Part shown: positions 1 to 56,651 of the stretch, piece by piece
Position numbering within the stretch: position 1 is the stretch's first letter
How the letters are laid out: every line of letters starts with the position of its first letter
Notes under the pieces: generated by a model
Seen by the model: only the letters and a program-made list of their open reading frames with translations
Told to the model about the DNA's origin: nothing
The model's database searches: none
Made by a program: the position numbers and the translations under genes
Assembly (NCBI GenBank): GCA_021844945.1
Contig: JAKBSJ010000003.1
Location: 32,565-96,564, forward strand
Reading direction: 5' to 3'
Origin: Thermoplasmata archaeon
GTDB taxonomy: Archaea > Thermoplasmatota > Thermoplasmata > Lutacidiplasmatales > UBA184
DNA: 64,000 nt

Positions 1-346
1 GCAGGATCGTCGCGATGATCGGCGAGACCGCTCGACGATCTCGACGGTGGGTCAGGAGCCGCAGGTCGCCGGCCCGTCGTCGTACTCCTCGCATCATGGA
101 ACGCACCCGTACTGGGACGGATGCTCCCATTTGAGCCTTCAGTTGGAGTTGGCCGACACCAACTCCGCCTCTCCATGGACGCCGGGCGAGCGCACGCGCA
201 TCGCACCTAGGGGTTATACTCCGCCCGCGGAAGTCGGCGCGCTGTTCGACGAGAGCAAATTTTTGTTTGACACGTCAGAGAAACGTTGAGGGAACGCCCA
301 CGCACATGGTTTCTCGCTTTTTCTCGCGATGTTTAAGTAGTAGGAA

Positions 347-868
347 ATGGGTCATGCGGACGTAACCGTGTTCGACAACGTCCCCCGTCGAGAGACCCCG
401 CTCGTTCGCGAGCGGAACGCTCGCCGGACCGACCCCGAGGACGCGCGCATCGCCCTACGGTGCAACCGCAAGGAACTCGAGCTGATCGACTCGTTCGTGG
501 CCAACGGCGAGTTCGAGAGTCGCTCGGAGCTCTTGCGGGCGGCGATGCACGCGCTGCTCCGGTCGCGCTCGTTGTCGTCCGAGGTCACGCCCCCCCGAGA
601 TTCCGAAGGTTACGTCGAAGTGCCCGTGCGCATGCGACCGCACGAGCTCGCCGAGTGGCAAGCCTTCGCCCGATTGGTGGAGAACGGACAACCCGTGCGC
701 GATGTCCTCGCGCGAGTGATCCGAGAGTTGGCGGCAGGTCGCCGCATACGTGACGCCGTCGCCTACCACCGCGAAGGATTACAGCAAGCCGCCGCGCGGC
801 AGGAGCAGGAGTCGGCACTTCGCGAAAGCGGAAAGAGTCTCGAACGCAAGGGCGTGCTCGGTCGATAG
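347..868 (+). CDS. Ribbon-helix-helix (CopG/MetJ-like) DNA-binding protein, 173 aa
   Basis: An RHH-type segment (ELELIDSFVANGEFESRSELLRAAMHALL) is present. The ORF ends 35 nt before the tubulin-like gene. An AT-rich TTTAAGTA lies 9-15 nt upstream of the ATG, so the true start may be further downstream. Confidence 0.5.
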   Translation: MGHADVTVFDNVPRRETPLVRERNARRTDPEDARIALRCNRKELELIDSFVANGEFESRSELLRAAMHALLRSRSLSSEVTPPRDSEGYVEVPVRMRPHELAEWQAFARLVENGQPVRDVLARVIRELAAGRRIRDAVAYHREGLQQAAARQEQESALRESGKSLERKGVLGR

Positions 869-905
869 GGGTTCCCGAGGTCGATCATGGAAACGGGGTG
901 GATAC

Positions 906-1793
906 ATGTCCGGGGCCGATCGAGGTGCGAGCGTAGGCAGTCCGTCGTCAGGATCTGACGAGCCGAACGGAGCGGCGATCTCCGGGACCGTGCGCCTGGG
1001 CCAAGATATCCGGTTCGTGATGATCGCCGTCGGCGGGGGCGCGATCCGCGTTGCACGGCCGATAGCCCGCCGCCACCTGCGCCACTTGGAAACGGTCGCG
1101 ATCAACTGCGATCCCCGGGTACAGGACTGCGAGGAGTTCGACCGCCGAATGTGTCTGATCCCAGAAGTGGGGGGACCGGCCGACACCTGCGGAAGTCCGC
1201 TCGCCGGAGCCGTCCTCGCGCGCGCGGCCGAACCGGCACTGCGACGCCTGTTCGACGAGGCGCACTTCGTTACGATCATCGGTAGCCTCGGCGGGGGCGC
1301 CGGTAGCGGAGTGCTACCGAACCTCCTCGAGCTCGCAAGCGAGCGCAGCCGGCACCTGACCGCCTTCGTCCTGAAGCCGTTCGCCTGTGAAGGAGAGCGC
1401 CGTGCGATCGCGGACCGGACGATTGGCCGCATCCACTTGCTCGAAGGCTTCTCCGACCTGAGGAACCAAAACCGTGCCGCCCTTCATGTCCTCGATAACC
1501 AATCGCTCGTCGGACCGCTCGGCTCTCGAGCGTTCCGGAGCGTCTCCGAACACTGGGCGCAGATTATCGGCGACTACGTGGAACAGAACTACATCGACGT
1601 CGCCGAGGCCTTTCTCCACTCGATGCTCTCTGCTGCCATCCCGGCGACGACGGTAGTAGCACCCCCGACCTCCGTCATCGGTCCCGGGATCGCACCGCCC
1701 GCCGAGATCCTGCCCCCGATCCCCGCCCAGCACCTCGAGGCCGAGCTCACGTTCGAGGTCCACAGCGCGGTTCGGCCGCCGCCGGCTCCGTAG
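906..1793 (+). CDS. Divergent tubulin/FtsZ-superfamily GTPase, about 295 aa (FtsZ-like, short)
   Basis: It has an FtsZ-like N-terminal glycine loop (IRFVMIAVGGGAIRVA) and the tubulin signature variant GGGAGSG within TIIGSLGGGAGSGVLPNLLE. Downstream KPFACEGERR resembles the FtsZ RPFxFEG motif. The ATG at 906 is chosen inside the longer 750-1793 ORF. The C-terminal region is short and proline-rich. Confidence 0.7.
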   Translation: MSGADRGASVGSPSSGSDEPNGAAISGTVRLGQDIRFVMIAVGGGAIRVARPIARRHLRHLETVAINCDPRVQDCEEFDRRMCLIPEVGGPADTCGSPLAGAVLARAAEPALRRLFDEAHFVTIIGSLGGGAGSGVLPNLLELASERSRHLTAFVLKPFACEGERRAIADRTIGRIHLLEGFSDLRNQNRAALHVLDNQSLVGPLGSRAFRSVSEHWAQIIGDYVEQNYIDVAEAFLHSMLSAAIPATTVVAPPTSVIGPGIAPPAEILPPIPAQHLEAELTFEVHSAVRPPPAP

Positions 1794-1857
1794 GGAAGCG
1801 AAAGCACGCTGGGTCGGCCCGGGATCGGACCATCCTCGGCACGGGACACAACGTTAA

Positions 1858-2049
1858 GTGGAGGATTCGTTGAATGCGACGCGAATGGACGGCCGCATCC
1901 TCACGGCGCTTGTGACGATCCTCCTCCCCGCGATCCTGATCGGGGTGACGATCGAGTTCTTCTCGTCAAACCCGCTGGCGATCCTGGGTCTGTTCGTCGT
2001 GATCGTCGGCGGAACGTTCTGGCTCTTGTCCTACACCGACTCGTTCTAG
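1858..2049 (+). CDS. Small hydrophobic protein (2 predicted TM helices), 63 aa
   Basis: The ORF has a GTG start, with an alternative ATG at 1885. The sequence is highly hydrophobic (ILTALVTILLPAILIGVTIEFF...LGLFVVIVGGTFWLL). Support is from composition only. Confidence 0.3.
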   Translation: MEDSLNATRMDGRILTALVTILLPAILIGVTIEFFSSNPLAILGLFVVIVGGTFWLLSYTDSF

Positions 2050-2062
2050 CCCCGACCGCGCC

Positions 2063-2899
2063 TCACTGATACATGGAGTCGGCGCCCGAGGGAGGCGCCG
2101 GCTCGGTCCCGGGAGAACTACCGGGCGGTGGAGCGGCCTTCATCACGGCCCGAAGCGCCCGCTCGATCTCCTCGGCTTGGGCGCGCAGGGGCAGCGTATC
2201 GATCTTGAGCTCAGGGAGCACCCGGTCCAGGGCCTCGATCAGCGCGGCCCCGGCTCGATGGTCCGGGAAGACCTGAGCCGACCGCGCGGTCGCGAGCAGC
2301 ACGGCCACGGGGAGAGGTCGGTCGAGCGCCTGGACCAGCAACGCTCCCGAGACGCCGCCGAGGACTCCCTCGTCGAGCGCTTCGGCGCCGCTCTTGCGGA
2401 TGGAGTCGAACGCCGGCCCGCTGGGTGGGAACACGATCGCGTATACCTTGGGTTCGGGTTCCTTCGCGCCGGTCTCGTCTTCTTCCTCCCCCGGGTGGGT
2501 AGAGACACCCTCGAGGGCCAAGATCCACCGAGCCTTTCGTCGTTCGGCCTCGTCCAGGAGCGTGCGGGCCAAGGAGGAGGCCTGGGAGGGGGTGGGGGGG
2601 AACTCGGAAAGAACCACCGCGAAGTCCTTGCGCCCGTAGACGCGAATGGGCGGGTTGACAATCCCGCCCTGAATCACCGCGATCGGGGGCATCTCCTGCG
2701 ATGCAAAGACGCCGATGCGAGGAAGCTTGAGCGTTCGGACGATGTAATGGGCCGCGATCGTGGTAGCAAGCCCGGCACTCGGAAAGCACGTCAAGATGGT
2801 AGCCCCGGGGTCGAGCGGGGGGGTCCCTTTCTCTTCCTTCCAGGTGAACTCCATGTCCTCGCCTCGTACGGAGCACACCAAGACGGGATTTAGGCTCAT
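2063..2899 (-). CDS. PAC2-family proteasome assembly chaperone (PbaB-like), 278 aa
   Basis: The PAC2-like core ILTCFPSAGLATTIAAHYIV...IGVFASQEMPPIAVIQGG is present. The C-terminal ...SMYQ fits an HbYX proteasome-docking motif. The start is taken at the internal ATG MSLNPVLV; the 633-aa ORF extension overlaps fen antisense and is rejected. Confidence 0.75.
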   Translation of the reverse strand: MSLNPVLVCSVRGEDMEFTWKEEKGTPPLDPGATILTCFPSAGLATTIAAHYIVRTLKLPRIGVFASQEMPPIAVIQGGIVNPPIRVYGRKDFAVVLSEFPPTPSQASSLARTLLDEAERRKARWILALEGVSTHPGEEEDETGAKEPEPKVYAIVFPPSGPAFDSIRKSGAEALDEGVLGGVSGALLVQALDRPLPVAVLLATARSAQVFPDHRAGAALIEALDRVLPELKIDTLPLRAQAEEIERALRAVMKAAPPPGSSPGTEPAPPSGADSMYQ

Positions 2900-2956
2900 G
2901 TGTCCGATCGTACGATCCGCCGGCAAGGCCAAGTACTGAAATCCGCTCGTCGGAAC

Positions 2957-4000
2957 GTGGGGCTTCCGTTCAAGGATATCGTGACCCCGCGGGAGCTTCC
3001 GTGGGGCGCTCTCTCGGGTCGGGCCGTCGCGGTCGACGCCTACAATGCCCTCTATCAGTTCCTCGCGACCATCCGGCAAGCGGACGGCCAGCCGTTCTCC
3101 GACGCCGACGGCCTCCCGACGAGCCATCTGATGGGTTCTTTCTATCGGACGACGTCCCTTCTCGCCGCGGGCGTCCGACCGGTCTGGGTATTCGATGGAA
3201 AGCCACCCGAACGCAAGGCCGGCACGATCCGGCAGCGGATCGAGGCGAAGGAGCGGGCCACCGAACAATGGCACGCCGCGCTCGCCGTCGGCGACCTGGC
3301 GACGGCCCGCCGGAAGGCGGCCCAGACTTCTCGGCTCACCCCCCCGATGGTTGAGGAGACGATCGAGTTGCTCGACGCTCTGGGGGTCCCCACGGTCCGC
3401 GCGCCGAGCGAAGGGGAGGCGCAAGCGGCTCGCATGGCGGCCGATGGCGTCGTGTGGGCCACAGCGTCCGAAGACTACGATACACTGCTCTTCGGAGCGC
3501 CCCGCCTCGTCCGGGGGCTGGCCGCCCGCCGCTCCGGCCGGACCGGCGGAACGGACGCGGCGCAGCTCATCGATCGGGAAGAGATGCTCCGGCTTCTCGA
3601 TATCTCGGGGGACGAACTCATCCTCATCGGGATCCTTGTGGGAACGGACTTCAACGACGGCGTTCGGGGGTACGGACCGAAGAAAGCGCTGAAGATCGCC
3701 CAGGAGCACCTGGGTTGGGCCGAGACGATAGCCCGCACGGGCCTCGACCCGACCGAGGCGGATGAGGTCGCCGAGATCTTTCGCCATCCGAACACGACGC
3801 CGGCACCGCCCCTCGACTTCCGTCCACCGGACCCCGATCGGGTGGCCCGCGTTCTCGTTCGCCGTCACGGTTTTTCGGAGGAGCGCGTGCGCTCGGCGCT
3901 TCAACGCGTGGGGCGCGCTCCGACGCAGGCAAAACCGGTTCCGACCACCCCTCGCGGGCGCCAACAGAGCCTCGATCGTTTCGAGGAGGTTCCGTCGTGA
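2957..4000 (+). CDS. fen: Flap endonuclease 1 (FEN1)
   Basis: The N-domain VAVDAYNALYQFL and GKPPERKA match FEN1. A C-terminal PCNA-interacting motif QQSLDRFEE (QxxLxxF) is present. The start is uncertain: GTG at 2957 or GTG at 2900. Confidence 0.85.
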   Translation: MGLPFKDIVTPRELPWGALSGRAVAVDAYNALYQFLATIRQADGQPFSDADGLPTSHLMGSFYRTTSLLAAGVRPVWVFDGKPPERKAGTIRQRIEAKERATEQWHAALAVGDLATARRKAAQTSRLTPPMVEETIELLDALGVPTVRAPSEGEAQAARMAADGVVWATASEDYDTLLFGAPRLVRGLAARRSGRTGGTDAAQLIDREEMLRLLDISGDELILIGILVGTDFNDGVRGYGPKKALKIAQEHLGWAETIARTGLDPTEADEVAEIFRHPNTTPAPPLDFRPPDPDRVARVLVRRHGFSEERVRSALQRVGRAPTQAKPVPTTPRGRQQSLDRFEEVPS

Positions 4001-49236: not shown

Positions 49237-50145
49237 CTACCGCGGAGCGCCCGGTCGACGGCTTCCGACATAGAGGAGGGATATAAGCACGACCGCCACG
49301 AAGGCGACCACGCCGAGCACGTAGTAGTCCGTGTAGTTCGCGGGCGGACCTTCCACGTAGAACGTGATCGAGTAGCTCTGCTGGCCGTTCGCGAAATGGA
49401 CCTGGCCATGGGGGGAAGGTAAGGTCAGGACGAATGTATGGTACCCCGGACCCAGCGGGAGCGTGGTGTAGTCGAAGGTGAAGTTGTACACTTCCTTGGG
49501 AGTGAGGGTCGGAATCGTGATCGCGCCGACGACCGTTCCGTCCAACGTCACCGGGATGGCGAACGAGAGCACCGTCTGGGCACCCGCGACGACCTTTCCC
49601 GTAAGGATGTAGGGTGCCACCACGCGGACCGTGATTGTGACGTTCAACGACTCGTTGAGCTGCTCGTAGCGCGACGCGAACTCGACCGTGATCGTCACGG
49701 TCTGGACGATCCCGCTGGTGTCGAGCTCGACCGGATAGCCGGACGTCGAGTTCGGGACCGTTCCCGTGCTCGGCAGAAAGCTGACCGACGTGGTGTTGGT
49801 CCCCGCGACCGACGCCCAATAGGTGATGTTCCCGACCTCCGTTCCGTTGGCCGCGTACGCCGGGCCCCCGTGGGCCATCAGTACGTACTCGAAGGTCTTG
49901 TTCTGCCCGACGACCTTCGGCCCCGTGACGTTCGCCTTGAGCGGCGAGTAGCTCGAAGACAGGCTCGTTAGGAAAGGACCCGATCCCATGGAGCGGGAGC
50001 CGGAGGGCGCCGTAACGGAGGCGGCGGAGCCCACGGGGGTCGCCGAGATCGCGAGGAGGGCGACCACACCGAGGGCGAACGCCACGGCGAGAGCATGGGA
50101 ACGGCTCACCAACGCCGCCACCTCCGCGTGCGGTTCCACCGCCAT
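49237..50145 (-). CDS. Sequon-rich secreted/membrane-anchored protein (putative N-glycoprotein), about 302 aa
   Basis: The N-terminus has a signal-like hydrophobic segment (ALAVAFALGVVALLAISA). It carries about 10 N-x-S/T sequons (NVT, NKT, NGT, NIT, NTT, NST, NES, NFT, NYT). There is a C-terminal TM helix plus a basic tail. The start MAVEPHAEV is chosen; its 5' end overlaps the aglB 3' end by 40 nt. Confidence 0.6.
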   Translation of the reverse strand: MAVEPHAEVAALVSRSHALAVAFALGVVALLAISATPVGSAASVTAPSGSRSMGSGPFLTSLSSSYSPLKANVTGPKVVGQNKTFEYVLMAHGGPAYAANGTEVGNITYWASVAGTNTTSVSFLPSTGTVPNSTSGYPVELDTSGIVQTVTITVEFASRYEQLNESLNVTITVRVVAPYILTGKVVAGAQTVLSFAIPVTLDGTVVGAITIPTLTPKEVYNFTFDYTTLPLGPGYHTFVLTLPSPHGQVHFANGQQSYSITFYVEGPPANYTDYYVLGVVAFVAVVLISLLYVGSRRPGAPR

Positions 50146-53100
50146 ACGAGGATGATCGCCCCAACGACGAGCGTGGGGACGAGGGCCAGCACGATCAGGA
50201 GCCATTCCGCGTATACGACCGGGGCGGTTCCGGTGCCGGGACCGGTGACGATCGTGTATGGGTTGACGGTCACGGTCGTGGACGGGATCGAGAAGGTCAG
50301 GGTCTGTTGCGAGTTCAACGACTCGTTGAGGATCGTCACCGCCACCTCTGCGGTCGCCGGCGGGACGGCGATCGCGCCGGAGGTGAGGTTCAGGGCGAAC
50401 GCTTCGCTCGCCCCCGGCGAAACCGAGTAGGTAGTGACGACGGTGCGGCCCTGGAGGATGTTCGATGTCCATCCGAGGCTGGCGAGCTGCGGTGCATCGA
50501 CCACACTGAGCCGAAGACCGATCACCGCGTTGCCGACGTTGTCGACGGAGAAGAGAATCTCGACCTGGTGCGGCCCCACGGACGGCGCCGTGGCGCTGCT
50601 CTCGAGCACCATCGCGTAGCGGGGCGCGATATGAATCGTTGGGGTGTCCGCGATGGTTCCGATGGCCGTGCCGTTGGCGGTCACGACCGTGAGATAGAGC
50701 GGCGGGTGGGTGACGGCGGTTCCGGCGGGAACGATCACGCGGACGGCCCCGCTCGCGGTCGCCCCGGGGGAAAGGCTGACGTCGGTGAGCGTCGTCGTCA
50801 TGTTCCAGTACGCGGGGCTGGCGATGAGCGAAACGGTAACCGGGACATTTCCGGTGTTCGTTAGGCCCACACTGAAGTCAACCGGCCCTCCGTTCGCCGG
50901 AAGGTCGACCGAGGTCGGCCCCGAGACGGTCCCGGCGACGGAAGGTAGAAGCACCCACGCCAGGGAGAGTCGGGTCGCAGTGCTTCCCGATACGACTGCC
51001 ACCGATTGGGAAGCGGTTGCGTTGGACAGGACGGAATAGGGATATCCAGTGGCCCTCGCACCTAGGACGTAGCCGCCCGTGGGTAGCCAAACAGAGAGGG
51101 TCGAGCCCACGACGACGTTCGGGAACTCGAACACGACCCCTGCAGCGGACCGGACGGTCACGAGGGCGACGGAGCCGTTGACGATCCCCCCGGGGGGCAT
51201 GGGGGTGATCTCGTTCGGATAGCTCGGGGAGAGGGTCAGCGCGAACGGTCCGCTCTGAGGCAAGACCGTCACGCCGGTCAGCTCGGCCGCCCCGGTCGCG
51301 TTCGCATACACCGCGTACGCCCCCGGAAGGAGCTGCACCGAGAAGCGACCGTTCACGACCGAAACGGTGGACAGGGCGTAGGAGGGATACGGTCCTTCGA
51401 GGGAGAGCGTCGCCGAGGCGAGCCCGGGCGCCGCAACGGTCCCATTGAACCATACGAGCTGCGTCGTCCCGACCATCCGTACGTTGCAGGTGGCCCCCGT
51501 GCGGCCCAGCGCACACGTGTTCGCACCCGTGGCCGTGGCGTAGCTCACAGCATAAGACCCGTTCGGACCGACGACCGTCCCAATCGTCCGCGCGCTGACC
51601 GAATAGGTCGTCGAGGCCGCGAGCACGAGAGTGTAGTTGCCGTAGGCCGTGCGGGCCGCCGCGACCGCCCCGCTGGCCGTGGTGAACGTGACGGTCGTGT
51701 TTGCGATGATCGGAACGTCGGTCGCGGTCATCAGGCTCCCCGAGACCGTGACCCCGACCAGGCTCAACCGAAGCGGAGTCGAGATCGAGCCGGTGGTCGG
51801 GACCGAGATCACCGTCAAGTTGGTGTAGTTGAGACCGGCATGTGCACCAAAAAAGTAGGCAGAATACGTTCCGACCGGCGCGTAGAAGCCGCTTGTGTAG
51901 GCCGCGCCCGAGACCGTCAGGTTGAATCCGGTGGACCCGGTGAGTCGCAGCGTGACGGCAGAGGATGGCATGCCATTGGGCAACCGTAGGGTGCCGGTGG
52001 TGTTGCGCTCGCGCACGAGAGAAACGGCCTCGGTCACTTGGCTCCGCCCGAGCGCTACCGAGAACGACCCGCCCGGCGCACTCGAGTAGCGGGTCACGTT
52101 GGGCTCGCCCGGCGCGTAGGCCTGTACCGAGTACGTTCCCGGGGTGATCGTGAGCGAAGCCGACGAGTAGCCTTGAGCCACATACGTCCCAGCCGTGGCG
52201 CTCGTGCCGTTGAGGTAGATCGTGGTCAGGGTTGATGAGGTGGTCCCCGAAATCGGGAGCGTGAGCGTCACCGGGGCGAACGAAATCGGAAGGCGGCTCA
52301 CGCTCGGAAGGCTGCCTGGGGCGATGCACTCGCTCGCCGGCGAGTAACCGACCGCGCTTGCGCCGAGACAATAGGTCTCGTTGTCCGGTAGGGCGGCGGG
52401 GACTATGTACGAGACCGTTCCCGAGCTACCCGTGACCACCGGGACCGATGGGCCCCCCGAGATCCCTATTCGGATCGTCACGTTCGCGTTCGCCACTGGA
52501 TAGAGCACGCCGCTCGGAAGCGTCGCGCTGACGGTGAACGTCGTGCGCACCGCGGTCACCGGGACGATCGTCACCGAAGTGGGGCCGCTCACCGCGACCG
52601 ACTGAAGCGCCGCGTACAACGACGACGAGCTGCCCGAACCCGCCTGTAACGTGAGCAGGGAGTACGTGCCAGAGGGGAGCGCCAGGGAAAAAGAGCCGTT
52701 CGTGGCCACGGCGGTGACGTTTCCTTGGGCGTCGTAGGCGAAAACGACGCTCGACGCTCCGACGCCCGCCCCGCTATTGCGGACTGTTCCCGTGAGCCAG
52801 TTGGCCGGCGCGAGCTCGAGGGTAGGGACCGGAACCGGCGCCCCGGGGCTACTGACGCGGAACGTGCCCAAGGCCGTCTCGAGCCCAGCGCCGACGTACG
52901 TGGACGCGTAGGCGGTGTAGTTGCCCAGCGGCAGATAGGCGCTGGCCGAACCGACCGAGTTCGTGTAGAGGACGGTGGAGTTCTCGAGGGCGCTCGAGAG
53001 CGATGCGACGCTCGCGCTGCTGCCGAAGTTCGGTAGCGAAGTGAGGCGGATCGGAGTGTTGGCGACCGGAGCACCGGCGGCGCTCACGGTGAGGGTGGCG

Positions 53101-56100
53101 AGGGCGCTGGGGTACTCCGTCAAGTTGATCGAAAGCTTGGCACCGATCTCGCTGATGACGGTGGTCGTGCCCAGGGAACGCATGTTCGCTCCGGGCCCGA
53201 CCGCGGTGATCGTGTAGTTGCCGGGGCTGAGGTTCGGTATGTCATAGGTACCGGTCAGGTTCGTCGTCGTGGTGAGGACCCGGCCCGTGCTCGATCCGAT
53301 CGTGACGGTGGCTCCCTGGATCACGTCGCCGATCGCGTTGGTGACCCTGCCGGTGATATTCCCGGGCGTCAGGCCGAAGCTCGCGTTCACGGGCGAGAGC
53401 GAAGAGTCAACGGTGATGTTTCCGGGAAGCGTGTAGTTCGTGCCATCGTACAGAACGGACTCGTTGTAGACGCCCGGGGCGACGTTGGAGAGCCGGAACG
53501 TCCCACCCGCATCCGTGGTGGCCGTGACCGCGGTACCGTTGGCGACGCCATAGAGGACGACCCGAGCGTCGGGGACTGGGAGATCGCTAGTTTGGTATAC
53601 CGTGCTGTTCGCGAGGTTCCAGTATACGAGTCCGTCGACCACCGAAGCTCCGACCGTGATCGTTCGCTGGACGGTGATCGGCTGGAGGCTGAAGCCGATC
53701 GCGTTCGGAACGGAAATCGGAATCGAGTCGAGGAGGATGTTCCCCTGTTGGGTGATACCGTTGAGGGTGCCGATCGTGACGTTCACCGTGTCGTTGCCCG
53801 GGGGAAGGATGACCGAGTACTGGCCCTGCGGGCCCGTGATCACACTCATGTGCGGGATCCCGAACTCGTCGTTGACCGTCACGCGGGCGCCGGCGACGGG
53901 CGCGCCGTTCGGCAATGTCACCGTCCCGGTCATGGTCTCGCCGGAGTAGTACACGAGGATGGACTCGCCCCCGCTGAAGTAGTCGTTGGCGCTCGTGTTC
54001 GCCACGCCGATCCCGCTGCCGGCGAGCGCTTCGGCCTGCGGTTTGTTCATCGCGACGTAGCAATTCGAATTGCTCGCCCGGCTTGCGTTGTCGCAGTAGT
54101 AAGCGGTCTGATACTGGACCTCGAAATGGGACATCATCCAGCCGGGCATGACCGGGTCGGACGCGACGGATCCCTCGAGGCCCGGAATTCCAGTGCTCTT
54201 CCCGACCTGGGTGCCGTTGTAGCCAAAGTAGATGCGGTAGATCATCGAGTTGTAGAACGGCGCGAAGTAGGAGATGTAGTAGTTCACCGCGCTCACGCCG
54301 GCCGGAACCTCACCTTCGGGGTAGTACTTCCCGTTCGAGCCGAGCACGGTCACGTTGAAGTAAATCCCGGGGTTCCCGCCGGCATCCAGCCCGCGTCCCG
54401 TAAGATCGGCGGGGGCGTAGTAGATACCGGTGTCGGATCCCGAGAACGGGATCAAGCGCGTGTCGGCCATAGCGTATCGGATGGTCCAGCCCGTGTACTG
54501 TTGAACGTTGTTGTAGACCTGGGCGACGCCGTTCGGACTCAGCGCTCCCGCGATGTAGTAGGAAACGACCATGAACATCGCGTTCTCCGGCGTGAGCGTG
54601 GACGCGTCGACCGGGAGGTAGAGACCTGGATTTGCGACGACCGTCTTGTAATCCCAGCTCCAGTTCACGAGCGCGTTGTGCAGGTACGAGAGGTTCAGTC
54701 CCGCGGAGGCAAGCATCTGGTTGAGCGCGACGGGCAGGTATGGCAATCCCGACTTCGTCTGCTCACCGTTGAGCAAGGTCGTCGTCAGGACCCCGAGAGC
54801 GATCGACTGGTTCTGGGCGAGGAGGAATTGCCCGGACGGGTCGATGCCGTTCTGGAAGTCGTCGGCAACCGACGGGTGCTGGCCCTGATCGATCGTCTGG
54901 AACCCGTAATCCCACCAGGCCACGACCGCGGATCTATTAGGTTCGGGAACGGCCGTTTGCTGTTGAGCTAACCAATTGTATCCGGCGGAATCGTAGAGGT
55001 TCGGGGTGTCGAGCGATGCGCCGGTCGCACCGAAGTAGAAGCTGGAAGCATCGCTCGCGGCCGGCCGGAGCCACGAAGGGAACGTGTCGTAGACCTGCGT
55101 AGATGCCGCGGCCTTGGTATTGCTCGGGATACCCGCGTCGATCCCGTACCAGATATTGGGCACGAGAAGGCCCACGACGAGCAAGATGATGAGGATGTGA
55201 TGGGCTTTGAACGACTTGCGGAACGCCGTGAGCCGGCTGCGCGTGTCGGTCAGCGATCGCATGCTTTGACGCAGCTCGGAATAGCTCCCGAGGTCCCACA
55301 GACGGCGTACCGCCTCGGCCGGAAGTAGCGCGAACGCGGGGGACGCCAGCAACAGGAACTTCGACGCCGAGATGGGGAGGTAGACCGAGAGAACCCCGAA
55401 AATGAGGATGACGAGCAGCCATCGCTGCCGGAAGCGGCCCTTTGCGAGAGCCCAGGCGATCAGCGCGAGGCCGACGAAGGCTAGGAAGAACGTGATGACC
55501 CCGAAGGCGATGACCAAAGTGTCGAAGGACGGCGAGACGTCCTCGGCGACGGTCGAGTAGATCAGTGTCTTGATGAAGTAGCCCTGTCCGGTGACGATCG
55601 CGGTGAAGTAGGCCGGATCGACCACCAACAACGCGGCCATCGCCGCAACGACGAGGGCGACGAACGTCGGTATCGAGACGACCCAGGGGAGGTCCCGCAT
55701 CATCATGAACGGGATCAAAATGATCAACGCGCCGAAGAACAGCAAGAGCGGAAGGTCGAACCAACTGATGAAATCCCCCTGGACGTAGTAGTACGGCATC
55801 GCCATCGGGAAGCCGACCAGCCCGACGATGGCGGTCGCGACGTACAGCCCGAAGGAATCCACGCGGCGGACGCGTTCGATGAGGACCATGAGGACGAGGA
55901 ACACACCGATGACCGCGACGCCGTACGTGTAGCCCTGCCACGCAAGGGCGAGCGCTCCGAACGTCACTCCGGTAAACACGGCCCACTTTACCGCGGTGCG
56001 CTCGCCCCGCAGGAAACCAACTAAACCGCTGTAGATCGACCGTGGGCTCCGGTAACTCTCGACCCAGCGACGCGAGCCCACGGACTTAACGGTGCGAATG

Positions 56101-56651
56101 TAACAATAGATCAGGACGAGGATGATGAATGTGTAGAAGCTGAGGTAGTCGGCATACCCCCAGATCGACTCGCTGATGCTCGCCGGCAAGAACGGGAAGA
56201 TCATCGCGGCGATCAGGCCCGTGCGTCGGTCGCCGACCTCCCGGCCGATCAGATAGATCGGGAACACGCTCAGGGCCGCCCAAAGGGGAGACTGGAGGTT
56301 TAGGAAGAACGCTCCTGCTTCCTGGGCATTGCCGCCGAAGAACGGGGCGAAGAGGATCCCCAGGATCGCGTTCATCCAGTCGAACAGCGGCTCCCGGGGG
56401 TTGATCGCGCCGACCGGGTACTTGAGCAACGGATCGACGATGAGGTTCGTGTGATTCAGTATGATGTACTGCATCACGCGGGAGTGGTAGTACGAGTCGG
56501 AGCCGCCGGCGTAGACGTAAAGGTTACCGAACTGTTGGATGATCGGATAGACGAACTCCGTCCGGATCAAGAAGGCGAGCGAAAATGCGAGCAGCAGGAC
56601 AGCGATGGTCCAGAAGTGGCGGCTCCACCACCCTTTTGAATCGTTGTCCAT
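50106..56651 (-). CDS. aglB: Giant oligosaccharyltransferase AglB/STT3 (2181 aa) fused to a long sequon-rich beta-sandwich repeat region
   Basis: The N-terminal approximately 900 aa form a polytopic STT3 domain with the WWDYG motif (VVAWWDYGFQ). The C-terminal approximately 1280 aa carry carboxypeptidase-regulatory/Ig-like repeats (e.g. GTVTLPNGAPVAGARVTVND...GQYSVILPPG) with dozens of N-x-S/T sequons. The protein ends in a TM helix and RRWRRW. Confidence 0.9.
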   Translation of the reverse strand: MDNDSKGWWSRHFWTIAVLLLAFSLAFLIRTEFVYPIIQQFGNLYVYAGGSDSYYHSRVMQYIILNHTNLIVDPLLKYPVGAINPREPLFDWMNAILGILFAPFFGGNAQEAGAFFLNLQSPLWAALSVFPIYLIGREVGDRRTGLIAAMIFPFLPASISESIWGYADYLSFYTFIILVLIYCYIRTVKSVGSRRWVESYRSPRSIYSGLVGFLRGERTAVKWAVFTGVTFGALALAWQGYTYGVAVIGVFLVLMVLIERVRRVDSFGLYVATAIVGLVGFPMAMPYYYVQGDFISWFDLPLLLFFGALIILIPFMMMRDLPWVVSIPTFVALVVAAMAALLVVDPAYFTAIVTGQGYFIKTLIYSTVAEDVSPSFDTLVIAFGVITFFLAFVGLALIAWALAKGRFRQRWLLVILIFGVLSVYLPISASKFLLLASPAFALLPAEAVRRLWDLGSYSELRQSMRSLTDTRSRLTAFRKSFKAHHILIILLVVGLLVPNIWYGIDAGIPSNTKAAASTQVYDTFPSWLRPAASDASSFYFGATGASLDTPNLYDSAGYNWLAQQQTAVPEPNRSAVVAWWDYGFQTIDQGQHPSVADDFQNGIDPSGQFLLAQNQSIALGVLTTTLLNGEQTKSGLPYLPVALNQMLASAGLNLSYLHNALVNWSWDYKTVVANPGLYLPVDASTLTPENAMFMVVSYYIAGALSPNGVAQVYNNVQQYTGWTIRYAMADTRLIPFSGSDTGIYYAPADLTGRGLDAGGNPGIYFNVTVLGSNGKYYPEGEVPAGVSAVNYYISYFAPFYNSMIYRIYFGYNGTQVGKSTGIPGLEGSVASDPVMPGWMMSHFEVQYQTAYYCDNASRASNSNCYVAMNKPQAEALAGSGIGVANTSANDYFSGGESILVYYSGETMTGTVTLPNGAPVAGARVTVNDEFGIPHMSVITGPQGQYSVILPPGNDTVNVTIGTLNGITQQGNILLDSIPISVPNAIGFSLQPITVQRTITVGASVVDGLVYWNLANSTVYQTSDLPVPDARVVLYGVANGTAVTATTDAGGTFRLSNVAPGVYNESVLYDGTNYTLPGNITVDSSLSPVNASFGLTPGNITGRVTNAIGDVIQGATVTIGSSTGRVLTTTTNLTGTYDIPNLSPGNYTITAVGPGANMRSLGTTTVISEIGAKLSINLTEYPSALATLTVSAAGAPVANTPIRLTSLPNFGSSASVASLSSALENSTVLYTNSVGSASAYLPLGNYTAYASTYVGAGLETALGTFRVSSPGAPVPVPTLELAPANWLTGTVRNSGAGVGASSVVFAYDAQGNVTAVATNGSFSLALPSGTYSLLTLQAGSGSSSSLYAALQSVAVSGPTSVTIVPVTAVRTTFTVSATLPSGVLYPVANANVTIRIGISGGPSVPVVTGSSGTVSYIVPAALPDNETYCLGASAVGYSPASECIAPGSLPSVSRLPISFAPVTLTLPISGTTSSTLTTIYLNGTSATAGTYVAQGYSSASLTITPGTYSVQAYAPGEPNVTRYSSAPGGSFSVALGRSQVTEAVSLVRERNTTGTLRLPNGMPSSAVTLRLTGSTGFNLTVSGAAYTSGFYAPVGTYSAYFFGAHAGLNYTNLTVISVPTTGSISTPLRLSLVGVTVSGSLMTATDVPIIANTTVTFTTASGAVAAARTAYGNYTLVLAASTTYSVSARTIGTVVGPNGSYAVSYATATGANTCALGRTGATCNVRMVGTTQLVWFNGTVAAPGLASATLSLEGPYPSYALSTVSVVNGRFSVQLLPGAYAVYANATGAAELTGVTVLPQSGPFALTLSPSYPNEITPMPPGGIVNGSVALVTVRSAAGVVFEFPNVVVGSTLSVWLPTGGYVLGARATGYPYSVLSNATASQSVAVVSGSTATRLSLAWVLLPSVAGTVSGPTSVDLPANGGPVDFSVGLTNTGNVPVTVSLIASPAYWNMTTTLTDVSLSPGATASGAVRVIVPAGTAVTHPPLYLTVVTANGTAIGTIADTPTIHIAPRYAMVLESSATAPSVGPHQVEILFSVDNVGNAVIGLRLSVVDAPQLASLGWTSNILQGRTVVTTYSVSPGASEAFALNLTSGAIAVPPATAEVAVTILNESLNSQQTLTFSIPSTTVTVNPYTIVTGPGTGTAPVVYAEWLLIVLALVPTLVVGAIILVWRWNRTRRWRRW

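What the first reader, a model, noticed from the sequence alone, without database searches (positions are those of the whole stretch)
347..1793. RHH DNA-binding protein plus truncated tubulin/FtsZ-superfamily GTPase pair (TubR/TubZ-like or FtsZ-like paralogue?)
- The GTPase has the FtsZ/tubulin core (AVGGGAIRV glycine loop; GGGAGSG signature; KPFACEGERR).
- It is only about 295 aa, lacks a recognisable FtsZ C-terminal domain, and has an atypical T7 region.
- It is preceded, 35 nt away, by a 173-aa ribbon-helix-helix protein.
- A small DNA-binding protein followed by a tubulin-like GTPase is the architecture of type-III (TubZRC-like) partition/segregation cassettes.
- It could also be one of the poorly characterised archaeal FtsZ-like-1 paralogues.
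- Either way it is not a canonical division FtsZ.
Basis: partly seen in the sequence, partly recalled or inferred. Interest (0 to 1): 0.65.

Follow-up and report, generated by a model that had tools for sequence, protein, structure and literature searches.

The report
Half-length FtsZ with CdrS-like regulator
A soil archaeon of the Thermoplasmata carries a conserved chromosomal gene set (a double ribbon-helix-helix regulator, an FtsZ that has lost its whole C-terminal half, and a tiny membrane protein) that looks like a heavily remodelled version of the archaeal cdrS-ftsZ2 cell-division locus, not a plasmid-partition cassette.

Summary
An RHH gene (347/368-868) lies 37 nt upstream of a 295-aa FtsZ-like gene (906-1793).

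The short length is not a mis-call: more than 120 homologue clusters are 270-323 aa. The AlphaFold model shows only the N-terminal GTPase domain plus helix H7, then a disordered Pro-rich linker ending in a conserved E-x-E-L-T-F-E-V peptide. There is no T7 loop and no FtsZ_C domain.

The RHH gene sits directly upstream in 73 of 73 testable species loci. A 54-aa two-TM gene follows in 76 of 79. All lie in fixed housekeeping synteny in Lutacidiplasmatales-type Thermoplasmata.

The TubZRC and FtsZl1 readings fail. The best reading is a derived cdrS-ftsZ2-type locus:
- CdrS is the best family match of the RHH, though below cut-off.
- The RHH is a tandem RHH, like the one that precedes full-length FtsZ2 in other Thermoplasmata.
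- Methanomassiliicoccales carry an intermediate form: a tandem RHH next to a 273-aa short FtsZ.

Three GTTCGAC boxes and two TATA-like elements upstream are conserved in 58 species, which suggests autoregulation.

The function (GTP-binding, non-polymerising or filament-capping division accessory) is inferred. I could not test whether canonical FtsZ coexists in these genomes. I rate it a new variant of a known kind, of moderate to high interest.

The parts
213..219 (+). Conserved GTTATAC element (TATA-like). It lies 25 nt upstream of box 1 and may be a second, upstream promoter.
   Evidence: At least 90% conserved at a fixed position in 58 species. Its function is inferred.
244..250 (+). Box 1, GTTCGAC: candidate RHH operator.
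   Evidence: Conserved in 58 species, exactly 21 nt (start to start) before box 2.
264..278 (+). Box 2: TGTTTGACACGTCAG in the window, consensus TGTTCGACACGTCAG. Candidate RHH operator.
   Evidence: Near-invariant 15-mer lying 102-105 nt upstream of the RHH start in 58 species. Not coding, because the downstream reading frame is not conserved. No Rfam match.
331..339 (+). GTTTAAGTA: archaeal TATA box of the RHH operon promoter.
   Evidence: Invariant in 58-62 species, about 30 nt before the GTG start. This implies a leaderless or near-leaderless mRNA.
368..868 (+). Tandem ribbon-helix-helix protein (166 aa from GTG 368; the mechanical ORF starts at ATG 347). In 173-aa ORF numbering: RHH module 1 at residues 34-74, RHH-like module 2 at about 88-128, a long helix 117-167, and a conserved C-terminal LERKGV(V/L)GR. 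Box 3 (GTGTTCGACAAC, 368-379) overlaps its start codon.
   Evidence: The best NCBIfam match is CdrS (E 4e-5, below cut-off). hhalign against the tandem RHH found upstream of canonical FtsZ2 gives probability 80%, E 1.5e-5. dN/dS 0.08-0.38.
895..902 (+). GGGGTGGA: Shine-Dalgarno-like sequence 4-11 nt before the GTPase ATG. There is no TATA box in the 37-nt spacer, so co-transcription with the RHH gene is likely.
   Evidence: Read directly from the sequence. Co-transcription is inferred.
906..1793 (+). Short FtsZ-like GTPase, 295 aa. N-terminal GTPase domain plus H7 (residues 30-244, nt 993-1637). No C-terminal domain and no T7 loop. Pro-rich disordered linker. Conserved C-terminal peptide E-A-E-L-T-F-E-V (residues 278-285, nt 1737-1760).
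   Evidence: Invariant T2, T3, T4, T5 and T6 motifs (NCD, DTGGSP, GGGxGxG, PFxxE, LDN) in 50 sequences. dN/dS 0.04-0.28.
1853..1859 (+). GTTAAGT: TATA-like box of the small membrane-protein gene.
   Evidence: A CTTAAGT / CTTTAT-type element 25-32 nt before the ATG in 57 loci.
1885..2049 (+). 54-aa two-TM hairpin protein (MDGR...LPAxLIGVT...SNP...YLLSYTESFA). The mechanical ORF starts at GTG 1858.
   Evidence: Present directly downstream in 76/79 species loci. Conserved alignment and start. dN/dS about 0.06-0.1 in three pairs, 0.48 in one. No Pfam, PADLOC or PHROG family.

Best explanation
This is the Lutacidiplasmatales (TMEG, GTDB UBA184-type Thermoplasmata) version of the archaeal cdrS-ftsZ2 cell-division locus, heavily remodelled.

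The RHH protein is a CdrS-like transcription factor built as a single-chain tandem RHH with an added coiled-coil tail. It most likely binds the three conserved GTTCGAC boxes that flank and overlap its own promoter(s), and so autoregulates the RHH / short-FtsZ operon.

The GTPase is an FtsZ2-derived protein. It kept the nucleotide-binding N-terminal domain and helix H7 and lost the whole C-terminal domain, including the T7 synergy loop. It therefore probably still binds GTP. It cannot donate a T7 loop to a neighbour, and it cannot offer the normal 'bottom' polymer interface.

It keeps the FtsZ-style layout of a flexible linker plus a short conserved C-terminal peptide. That peptide probably docks it to a partner, possibly a membrane anchor such as the co-encoded 54-aa two-TM protein.

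Shown:
- the anatomy, the conservation, the linkage and the chromosomal context;
- CdrS as the best match of the RHH;
- tandem-RHH / FtsZ2 adjacency in other Thermoplasmata;
- intermediate short forms in Methanomassiliicoccales;
- conserved cis boxes upstream.

Inferred:
- DNA binding to the boxes;
- GTP binding;
- loss of self-polymerisation, and capping;
- the partner of the C-terminal peptide;
- a role in division.
For: 1. RHH identity.
- The best NCBIfam family for the window RHH is CdrS.
- The 105-106-aa RHH directly upstream of full-length FtsZ2 (Tubulin + FtsZ_C) in other Thermoplasmata hits CdrS at 1e-21 to 1e-22 with two stretches, i.e. it is also a tandem RHH.
- hhalign between that RHH and the window family gives E 1.5e-5.
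- tblastx shows RHH and FtsZ matching collinearly between such a locus and the Lutacidiplasmatales loci.

2. Intermediate form.
- Methanomassiliicoccales carry a 120-aa tandem RHH directly upstream of a 273-aa short FtsZ in 3/3 loci that have upstream sequence.
- hhalign scores of the window family: 201 against the short forms, 129 against Thermoplasmata FtsZ2, 122 against other FtsZ2, 116 against FtsZ1.
- An NJ tree places the family with the short forms, next to Thermoplasmata FtsZ2.

3. Literature.
- cdrS-ftsZ2 is a co-transcribed locus conserved across Euryarchaeota (PMC7439475; PMC8406309).
- ftsZ2 lies 'frequently with parD' (PMC8178401).
- Several Thermoplasmata have an eroded FtsZ machinery (PMC10936438).

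4. Rosetta-stone fusions of RHH_1 + Tubulin + FtsZ_C exist (P0290).

5. Anatomy of the GTPase.

6. Cis elements conserved in 58 species.

7. Purifying selection on all three genes.

8. Chromosomal housekeeping context.
Against: - Sequence phylogeny is weak. The family is about 24% identical to FtsZ1, FtsZ2 and bacterial FtsZ alike. Bootstrap support for grouping with the other short forms is only 18-36%, so long-branch attraction is possible.
- The hhalign differences among the full-length sets are small.
- The FtsZ1 and FtsZ2 reference sets were labelled by me, from motifs and RHH synteny, not from curated annotation.
- The RHH match to CdrS is far below the model's cut-off (23 bits against 100).
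- The flanking genes differ from those of the canonical Thermoplasmata locus (L7Ae-S28e-L24e-NDK there; pilin and PAC2-FEN1 here). Orthology by position is therefore not shown, and the pair could be a paralogous copy.
- I could not determine whether these genomes also carry canonical FtsZ1 or FtsZ2 (one search was uninformative).
- The H7 Asp that reads the guanine base in FtsZ (my knowledge) aligns with an invariant His-Trp pair, so nucleotide specificity is uncertain.
- The C-terminal peptide does not resemble the archaeal FtsZ 'GID' SepF-binding motif.
- No biochemical step has been tested.
Confidence: 0.55

Rival explanations
1. An independent paralogous module that is not the FtsZ2 orthologue. 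On this reading, a lineage-specific tubulin-superfamily GTPase coexists with canonical FtsZ1 and FtsZ2 and works with its RHH and the small membrane protein in something other than division, for example envelope or pilus-related remodelling, or a GTP-sensing switch that feeds back on the RHH.
For: - The family is equally distant (about 24% identity) from all FtsZ groups.
- Its flanking genes differ from those of the canonical locus.
- Type-IV pilin-like genes are the conserved, divergently transcribed upstream neighbours.
- The RHH has a lineage-specific 60-aa helical extension and a conserved C-terminal peptide.
Against: - The tandem-RHH-plus-FtsZ arrangement is the same as at canonical FtsZ2 loci of other Thermoplasmata.
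- The Methanomassiliicoccales forms look like intermediates.
- No second FtsZ was seen in 64 kb of window plus about 1 Mb of related loci, though this is weak evidence.
Confidence: 0.22
2. A type III (TubZRC-like) DNA-segregation cassette. On this reading the RHH is the centromere-binding adaptor on the iterated GTTCGAC boxes, and the GTPase is the cytomotive filament that pulls DNA.
For: - Gene order is a small DNA-binding protein followed by a tubulin-like GTPase.
- Three conserved repeats of one box lie upstream of the DNA-binding gene.
- Both proteins carry conserved C-terminal peptides that could mediate an adaptor-motor contact.
Against: - There is no T7 loop or C-terminal domain, so no canonical cytomotive polymer is possible.
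- Profile similarity to TubZ, RepX and PhuZ is negligible compared with FtsZ.
- The DNA-binding protein is an RHH, not a TubR-type winged helix.
- There are only three boxes, placed at and around promoters like operators.
- The locus is single-copy and chromosomal in at least 115 species, in fixed housekeeping synteny.
- No plasmid or phage relatives and no PHROG hit.
Confidence: 0.04
3. A member of the FtsZl1 family of Makarova and Koonin (2010), implicated in membrane remodelling.
For: - It lacks the canonical FtsZ C-terminal domain.
- It is linked to a membrane protein.
- There is a weak Pfam Tubulin_2 hit, E 0.0014, over the T4 motif only.
Against: - FtsZl1 lacks T6-H7, carries a long coiled coil and an alpha-helical C-terminal domain, and sits in vWA / protein kinase / GTPase operons.
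- Here T6 and H7 are conserved, the tail is a disordered Pro-rich linker, and none of those neighbours occurs.
Confidence: 0.03
4. A decaying pseudogene remnant of ftsZ2 with no function.
For: Loss of half the protein, and erosion of the FtsZ machinery in some Thermoplasmata.
Against: - dN/dS is 0.04-0.28.
- 59 columns are invariant, including all the nucleotide-binding loops.
- The length and the C-terminal peptide are conserved across at least 115 species.
Confidence: 0.01

Closest known systems
cdrS-ftsZ2 locus of Halobacteria (CdrS RHH regulator plus FtsZ2; Darnell et al. 2020, Liao et al. 2021)
   Same: - A small RHH gene sits directly upstream of, and is co-oriented with, an FtsZ-family gene.
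- CdrS is the best family match of the RHH.
- The context is chromosomal.
- The same pairing, with full-length FtsZ2, is seen in other Thermoplasmata.
   Different: - CdrS is a 61-aa single RHH. Here the protein is a 166-aa tandem RHH with a coiled-coil tail.
- FtsZ2 is a full two-domain polymerising GTPase with a SepF-binding GID tail. Here the C-terminal domain and T7 are absent and the tail motif is ExELTFEV.
- There is an extra conserved 54-aa membrane-protein gene.
- The upstream boxes are conserved.
- CdrL is absent.
Canonical FtsZ (TIGR00065; Pfam Tubulin + FtsZ_C)
   Same: - N-terminal GTPase fold (Foldseek top hits are all FtsZ, E about 1e-11).
- T1-T6 motifs and H7.
- The layout of a disordered linker followed by a short conserved C-terminal peptide.
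   Different: - No T7 loop and no C-terminal domain.
- 49 bits against the 295-bit equivalog cut-off.
- About 24% identity.
- The H7 base-contacting Asp is replaced by an invariant His-Trp.
Short FtsZ-like proteins of Methanomassiliicoccales MAGs (for example P0278 / NYT12470.1, annotated 'hypothetical' or 'FtsZ')
   Same: - N-domain plus H7 plus an acidic or Pro-rich tail.
- A tandem RHH gene directly upstream.
- hhalign score 201, probability 99.8%.
   Different: - They are much closer to canonical FtsZ (Pfam Tubulin 145 bits against 41).
- No ELTFEV peptide.
- No small TM gene downstream.
- The RHH is only 120 aa.
TubZRC type III plasmid/phage partition systems
   Same: The gene order (DNA-binding protein, then tubulin-like GTPase) and repeated DNA boxes upstream.
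   Different: - TubZ is a complete two-domain filament former.
- TubR is a winged helix-turn-helix protein.
- tubC has many iterons.
- These systems are plasmid- or phage-borne.
- None of these features holds here.
FtsZl1 (Makarova and Koonin 2010)
   Same: An FtsZ-superfamily N-domain without the canonical C-domain, with membrane-associated neighbours.
   Different: FtsZl1 lacks T6-H7, has a coiled coil plus an alpha C-domain, and sits in vWA, kinase and GTPase operons.
Engineered FtsZ 'bottom-face' capper mutants and isolated N-terminal domains (my knowledge of the bacterial FtsZ literature; not retrieved here)
   Same: A subunit that keeps the nucleotide-bearing face but lacks a functional T7 face can add to one filament end and block it.
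   Different: Those are laboratory constructs. This would be a natural, conserved gene. The analogy is untested.

Membership tests
Canonical FtsZ (FtsZ1/FtsZ2) | N-terminal tubulin/FtsZ GTPase domain with the GGGTGTG-type signature | tested here: met
   Pfam PF00091 scores 41.2 bits against a cut-off of 33. GGGAGSG is invariant in the family. Foldseek top hits are all FtsZ.
Canonical FtsZ (FtsZ1/FtsZ2) | C-terminal (FtsZ_C) domain with the T7 synergy loop (NxDxxD) | tested here: not met
   No PF12327 hit in the window protein or in 120 homologues. The AF2 model ends its folded part with H7 at residue 244. The alignment with FtsZ shows no counterpart of GLINVDFADV.
Canonical FtsZ (FtsZ1/FtsZ2) | Score above the NCBIfam equivalog cut-off (TIGR00065) | tested here: not met
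   49 bits against 295.2.
Canonical FtsZ (FtsZ1/FtsZ2) | Disordered C-terminal linker plus a conserved terminal peptide (archaeal GID motif that binds SepF) | tested here: inconclusive
   A linker and a conserved terminal peptide exist, but the motif is ExELTFEV, not GID (PMC8178401). The partner is unknown.
cdrS-ftsZ2 locus | RHH gene immediately upstream of, and co-oriented with, the FtsZ-family gene, conserved in relatives | tested here: met
   73/73 species loci. The spacer is 37 nt with an SD-like GGTG and no TATA box.
cdrS-ftsZ2 locus | The RHH belongs to the CdrS family | tested here: inconclusive
   CdrS (NF058555) is the best hit, but at 23 bits against a cut-off of 100. The tandem RHH next to canonical Thermoplasmata FtsZ2 scores 76-79 bits. 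hhalign between the two RHH sets gives E 1.5e-5.
cdrS-ftsZ2 locus | The GTPase belongs to the FtsZ2 clade | tested here: inconclusive
   The NJ tree nests it beside Thermoplasmata FtsZ2 through the other short forms, but with 18-36% bootstrap support. The hhalign gradient runs FtsZ2 above FtsZ1 but is small.
cdrS-ftsZ2 locus | Co-transcription, and regulation of ftsZ2 by the RHH | not testable with these tools
   Only conserved promoter and box architecture is available.
TubZRC type III partition | TubZ-type two-domain GTPase | tested here: not met
   PDB profile search gives TubZ E 0.015-0.056 over about 30 residues, and RepX 0.46. There is no C-domain.
TubZRC type III partition | TubR-type winged-helix adaptor | tested here: not met
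   The upstream protein is an RHH.
TubZRC type III partition | Iterated centromere repeats upstream | tested here: inconclusive
   Three GTTCGAC boxes are conserved in 58 species. They sit at promoter positions. The 8-mer is not enriched elsewhere in the window.
TubZRC type III partition | Location on a plasmid or phage | tested here: not met
   The locus lies on chromosomal contigs of 1.3-2.3 Mb in fixed housekeeping synteny. There is no plasmid or phage match.
FtsZl1 | Absence of T6-H7, presence of a coiled coil plus an alpha-helical C-terminal domain | tested here: not met
   T6 (LDN) is invariant and H7 is modelled at pLDDT above 88. The tail is disordered and Pro-rich.
FtsZl1 | Operon with vWA-domain, kinase or P-loop GTPase genes | tested here: not met
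   The neighbours are an RHH, a small TM protein, PAC2, FEN1 and a pilin.

The most novel reading that the evidence does not exclude
The short protein is the only FtsZ2-type protein, or even the only FtsZ-family protein, left in Lutacidiplasmatales. With its elongated tandem-RHH partner and the 54-aa membrane hairpin it forms a new three-part machine. In it, a nucleotide-binding half-FtsZ that cannot polymerise head-to-tail either caps and times FtsZ1 filaments, or physically couples RHH-bound chromosomal boxes to the membrane. That would be a natural 'half-tubulin' with a function not seen in any described tubulin-superfamily system.
Probability: 0.15. Interest if true: 0.85.

Novelty: new variant of a known kind. 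Interest (0 to 1): 0.6.

Why it matters
FtsZ and tubulin work because two domains of adjacent subunits complete one GTPase site. A family that has kept only the nucleotide-binding half, under strong purifying selection across a whole archaeal order and in Methanomassiliicoccales, asks what half an FtsZ is good for.

If it caps or tunes FtsZ filaments, it would be a natural, genetically encoded filament-end regulator. If it acts alone, it would be a new mode of action in the tubulin superfamily.

It also bears on how FtsZ-based division is being dismantled or rewired in the Thermoplasmata, a class in which some members have lost SepF, the PRC-barrel proteins or FtsZ altogether (PMC10936438).

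The very strongly conserved promoter and box architecture gives a directly testable operator for an archaeal CdrS-type cell-cycle regulator.

Tried and rejected
- Canonical FtsZ in the same genomes. Only the short gene was hit. None appeared in the top 120, which is uninformative because 7971 hits were truncated to 120. Look-ups of high-GC FtsZ2 candidates (P0511, P0530) gave other assemblies.
- Upstream conserved motif as a small ORF or a known RNA. Rejected: the reading frame is not conserved beyond the box and Rfam gives no hit.
- Antisense gene inside the RHH gene as the cause of its low dS. Rejected: antisense frames are no more open than in the GTPase gene.
- mRNA structure in the RHH 5' half. 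RNAalifold predicts long-range helices, but all pairs are invariant (covariation term +0.37), so this is undecided.
- Defence-system or phage origin. No PADLOC hit at all and no PHROG hit for the GTPase.
- The in-window repeat finder alone showed nothing significant upstream. The boxes only emerged from cross-species comparison.
- The RHH monomer model was mediocre (pTM 0.36) and gave only weak ParD/NikR-type RHH matches.
Full report
**What is there**

The window is a 65% GC chromosomal fragment. At its left end three co-oriented genes follow a divergently transcribed type-IV pilin-like gene (window 1-130, minus strand).
- An RHH gene: mechanical ORF 347-868, likely real start GTG 368.
- A 295-aa FtsZ-like gene, 906-1793.
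- A small membrane-protein gene: mechanical ORF 1858-2049, likely real start ATG 1885.

Downstream come PAC2 (minus strand), FEN1, FtcD and a RibD_C reductase. Further on lie primase PriS, RIO1, a Band_7 gene, the Nuo operon, topoisomerase VI and other housekeeping genes. Nothing in the window suggests a plasmid or virus.

**The GTPase**

It passes Pfam Tubulin (41 bits against a cut-off of 33). It is far below the FtsZ equivalog cut-off (49 against 295) and has no FtsZ_C domain. PDB sequence and fold searches return only FtsZ at the top.

With the family profile, PDB FtsZ scores 1e-16 to 1e-9, PhuZ 3e-5, TubZ 0.015-0.056 and RepX 0.46.

The AlphaFold2 model was built on a 50-sequence alignment (mean pLDDT 78, with more than 90 over most of the core). 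It contains strands S1-S6, helices H1-H6 and a long H7 (residues 210-244), and then nothing folded.

The family alignment shows invariant nucleotide-loop motifs: NCD (T2), DTGGSP (T3), GGGxGxG (T4), PFxxE..RR (T5) and LDN (T6). After these come a variable Pro-rich linker and a conserved terminal E-x-E-L-T-F-E-V peptide. There is no counterpart of the T7 NxDxxD loop.

The length is uniform at 270-323 aa over 120 listed homologue clusters. dN/dS is 0.04-0.28. The truncation is therefore ancient and the protein is functional. It is neither a mis-call nor a pseudogene.

An exhaustive profile search of 1.84 billion cluster representatives shows a discrete family of about 20 representatives at E below 1e-30. 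After that comes a sharp drop to generic FtsZ hits that match only the N-domain.

**Distribution and linkage**

A scan of one genome per GTDB species found 115 loci, of which 80 were kept. Nearly all are titled 'Thermoplasmata archaeon'. They include UBA184, acid-soil (AcS) MAGs and one 'Candidatus Lutacidiplasmatales' MAG. That order (TMEG) has about 69% GC and genomes of about 2.1 Mb (PMC9287336).
- The RHH gene is immediately upstream in 73 of the 73 loci with enough sequence.
- The small TM gene is immediately downstream in 76 of 79.
- On 1.3-2.3 Mb contigs the wider order is the same as in the window: pilins, then RHH, short FtsZ, small TM, then PAC2, FEN1, FtcD, RibD_C.

**The RHH protein**

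The family (166-181 aa as called) is as conserved as the GTPase. The alignment shows four parts:
- a classical RHH (RIALRC strand, then two helices; residues 34-74);
- a second strand-helix-helix unit (VEVPVRL...; about 88-128), so the protein is a single-chain tandem RHH;
- a long helix to residue 167;
- an invariant terminal LERKGV(V/L)GR.

The monomer model is mediocre but agrees on the helices. Its fold matches are ParD- and NikR-type RHHs. The best NCBIfam family is CdrS, the haloarchaeal cell-division regulator, though far below cut-off.

**Link to the cdrS-ftsZ2 locus**

In Halobacteria cdrS is co-transcribed with ftsZ2, and the pair is conserved across Euryarchaeota (PMC7439475, PMC8406309). 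Pende et al. note that ftsZ2 lies 'frequently with parD'.

I checked what precedes full-length FtsZ2 in other Thermoplasmata. In three independent loci (L085, L086, L093) a 105-106-aa protein lies directly upstream. It is itself a tandem RHH and hits CdrS at 1e-21 to 1e-22 with two stretches. hhalign between this RHH and the window's RHH family gives E 1.5e-5.

Methanomassiliicoccales MAGs carry what looks like an intermediate. A 273-aa FtsZ-like protein (N-domain, H7 and an acidic or Pro-rich tail, no FtsZ_C, Pfam Tubulin 145 bits) is preceded by a 120-aa tandem RHH. This holds in all three loci with upstream sequence.

Profile-profile scores of the window family:

| Compared with | hhalign score |
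|---|---|
| Other short forms | 201 |
| Thermoplasmata FtsZ2 | 129 |
| Other archaeal FtsZ2 | 122 |
| FtsZ1 | 116 |

A neighbour-joining tree gives the family 100% bootstrap support and places it with the short forms beside Thermoplasmata FtsZ2. That placement has only 18-36% support, and the branch is very long.

Fusion proteins of RHH_1 + Tubulin + FtsZ_C also exist (P0290).

Taken together, gene order and the RHH architecture argue that the window pair is a derived cdrS-ftsZ2-type locus. The sequence tree alone cannot prove it.

**Cis elements**

Cross-species comparison of the upstream region in 58 non-redundant loci shows a fixed architecture. Window coordinates are in brackets.
- GTTATAC (213-219)
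- 24 nt
- GTTCGAC (244-250)
- 13 variable nt
- TGTTCGACACGTCAG (264-278)
- about 60 variable nt
- GTTTAAGTA (331-339, a TATA box)
- about 28 nt
- CTGTGTTCGACAAC (the RHH start codon, 368-379)

All 62 relatives examined start GTG-TTC-GAC. This favours the 166-aa protein and a near-leaderless mRNA.

Boxes 1 and 2 are 21 bp apart, which is two helical turns. Box 3 lies just after the predicted transcription start. The motif region is not a conserved ORF and matches no Rfam family. The 8-mer is not enriched elsewhere in the window.

I read these as operators of the RHH at one or two promoters, giving autoregulation. They look less like a tubC-type centromere.

The small TM gene has its own TATA-like box about 30 nt before its ATG.

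**Mechanism (inferred)**

Established FtsZ structural biology says that GTP is bound by the N-domain. Hydrolysis and longitudinal contacts need the T7 loop and the C-domain of the next subunit. A protein with only the N-domain and H7 can present a nucleotide-bearing face but not a T7 face.

It should therefore not form canonical homopolymers. It could add to the T7-exposing end of an FtsZ filament and block that end, or it could act as a GTP-dependent switch.

Its linker-plus-peptide tail mirrors the way FtsZ is tethered to anchors. The co-encoded 54-aa hairpin membrane protein is a candidate partner, and so is the conserved C-terminus of the RHH. None of this is tested.

Makarova et al. (PMC10936438) report that several Thermoplasmata retain FtsZ without SepF or PRC-barrel proteins, or lack all three. 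That fits a lineage in which the FtsZ machinery is being rewired.

**What remains open**

I could not establish whether these genomes also encode canonical FtsZ1 or FtsZ2. This is the key fact for choosing among three readings: a remodelled FtsZ2, an extra paralogue, or a sole survivor.

The H7 residue that reads guanine in FtsZ is replaced by an invariant His-Trp, so nucleotide specificity is uncertain.

The RHH gene shows unusually conserved synonymous sites. dS is 2-3 times lower than in the neighbouring GTPase gene. The commonest codon is used at 75% of conserved four-fold sites, against 57% in the GTPase gene. I could not explain this.

**Verdict**

- The TubZRC and FtsZl1 interpretations are rejected.
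- 'Not a canonical FtsZ' is upheld.
- The best explanation is a strongly derived cdrS-ftsZ2-type locus encoding a C-domain-less FtsZ.
- My searches of the held literature found no description of this family. Databases call it 'hypothetical protein' or 'Tubulin/FtsZ family, GTPase domain'.
- I rate it a new variant of a known kind, interest 0.6.

**Caveats on references**

They served only as an outgroup and a probe.

I assigned the FtsZ1 and FtsZ2 labels of database hits myself, from the T6 and tail motifs and from RHH synteny.

Noticed in passing
window 437-580 (5' half of the RHH gene); alignment A4: Synonymous sites of the RHH gene are far more conserved than those of the adjacent GTPase gene. 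dS is 2-3 times lower in the same species pairs, and the commonest codon is used at 75% of conserved four-fold sites against 57%. RNAalifold proposes long-range helices, but every pair is invariant, so the cause is open: mRNA structure, internal binding sites or codon bias.
   Followed up: partly
window 1-130 (minus strand); L091 3295-3960: The N-terminus of an archaeal type-IV pilin-like protein (Pilin_N, ...RRAVSPIIATILLVAITVV...) is transcribed divergently from the RHH operon. Pilin_N genes are also the upstream neighbours on the megabase contigs of relatives. The conserved boxes lie between the two genes and might regulate both.
   Followed up: partly
L087 3506-4822; also L088 and L089 (JGI metagenome contigs): Methanomassiliicoccales-type loci carry a 120-aa tandem RHH directly upstream of a 273-aa FtsZ that also lacks the C-terminal domain. 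Domain loss is therefore not confined to the window's order.
   Followed up: partly
P0290 (461 aa) and P0292 (556 aa), from the representative search: Single polypeptides with an N-terminal RHH-like segment fused to a full-length FtsZ. P0290 hits RHH_1 + Tubulin + FtsZ_C. In P0292 only Tubulin + FtsZ_C score and the RHH was read by eye. This is a Rosetta-stone hint that CdrS-type RHH and FtsZ2 interact functionally, and perhaps physically.
   Followed up: no
P0264, P0267, P0277 (731-826 aa): Double-length FtsZ proteins with two matched stretches. P0267 and P0277 are from Altiarchaeales/Altiarchaeum MAGs, and the source of P0264 is not named. The first half is a complete FtsZ.
   Followed up: no
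window 50106-56651 (minus strand): A 2181-aa ORF with an N-terminal STT3/AglB oligosaccharyltransferase domain and CarboxypepD_reg repeats. This is an unusually large AglB-like protein.
   Followed up: no
window 2063-3964 (minus strand): The 633-aa mechanical ORF is a high-GC artefact. The real genes, as in relatives, are PAC2 on the minus strand (about 2063-2860) and FEN1 on the plus strand (2900-4000).
   Followed up: yes
window 1853-1859 and 1885-2049: The small membrane-protein gene appears to have its own TATA-like box and a leaderless start at ATG 1885, giving 54 aa rather than 63. It may therefore be transcribed independently of the RHH / short-FtsZ operon.
   Followed up: partly
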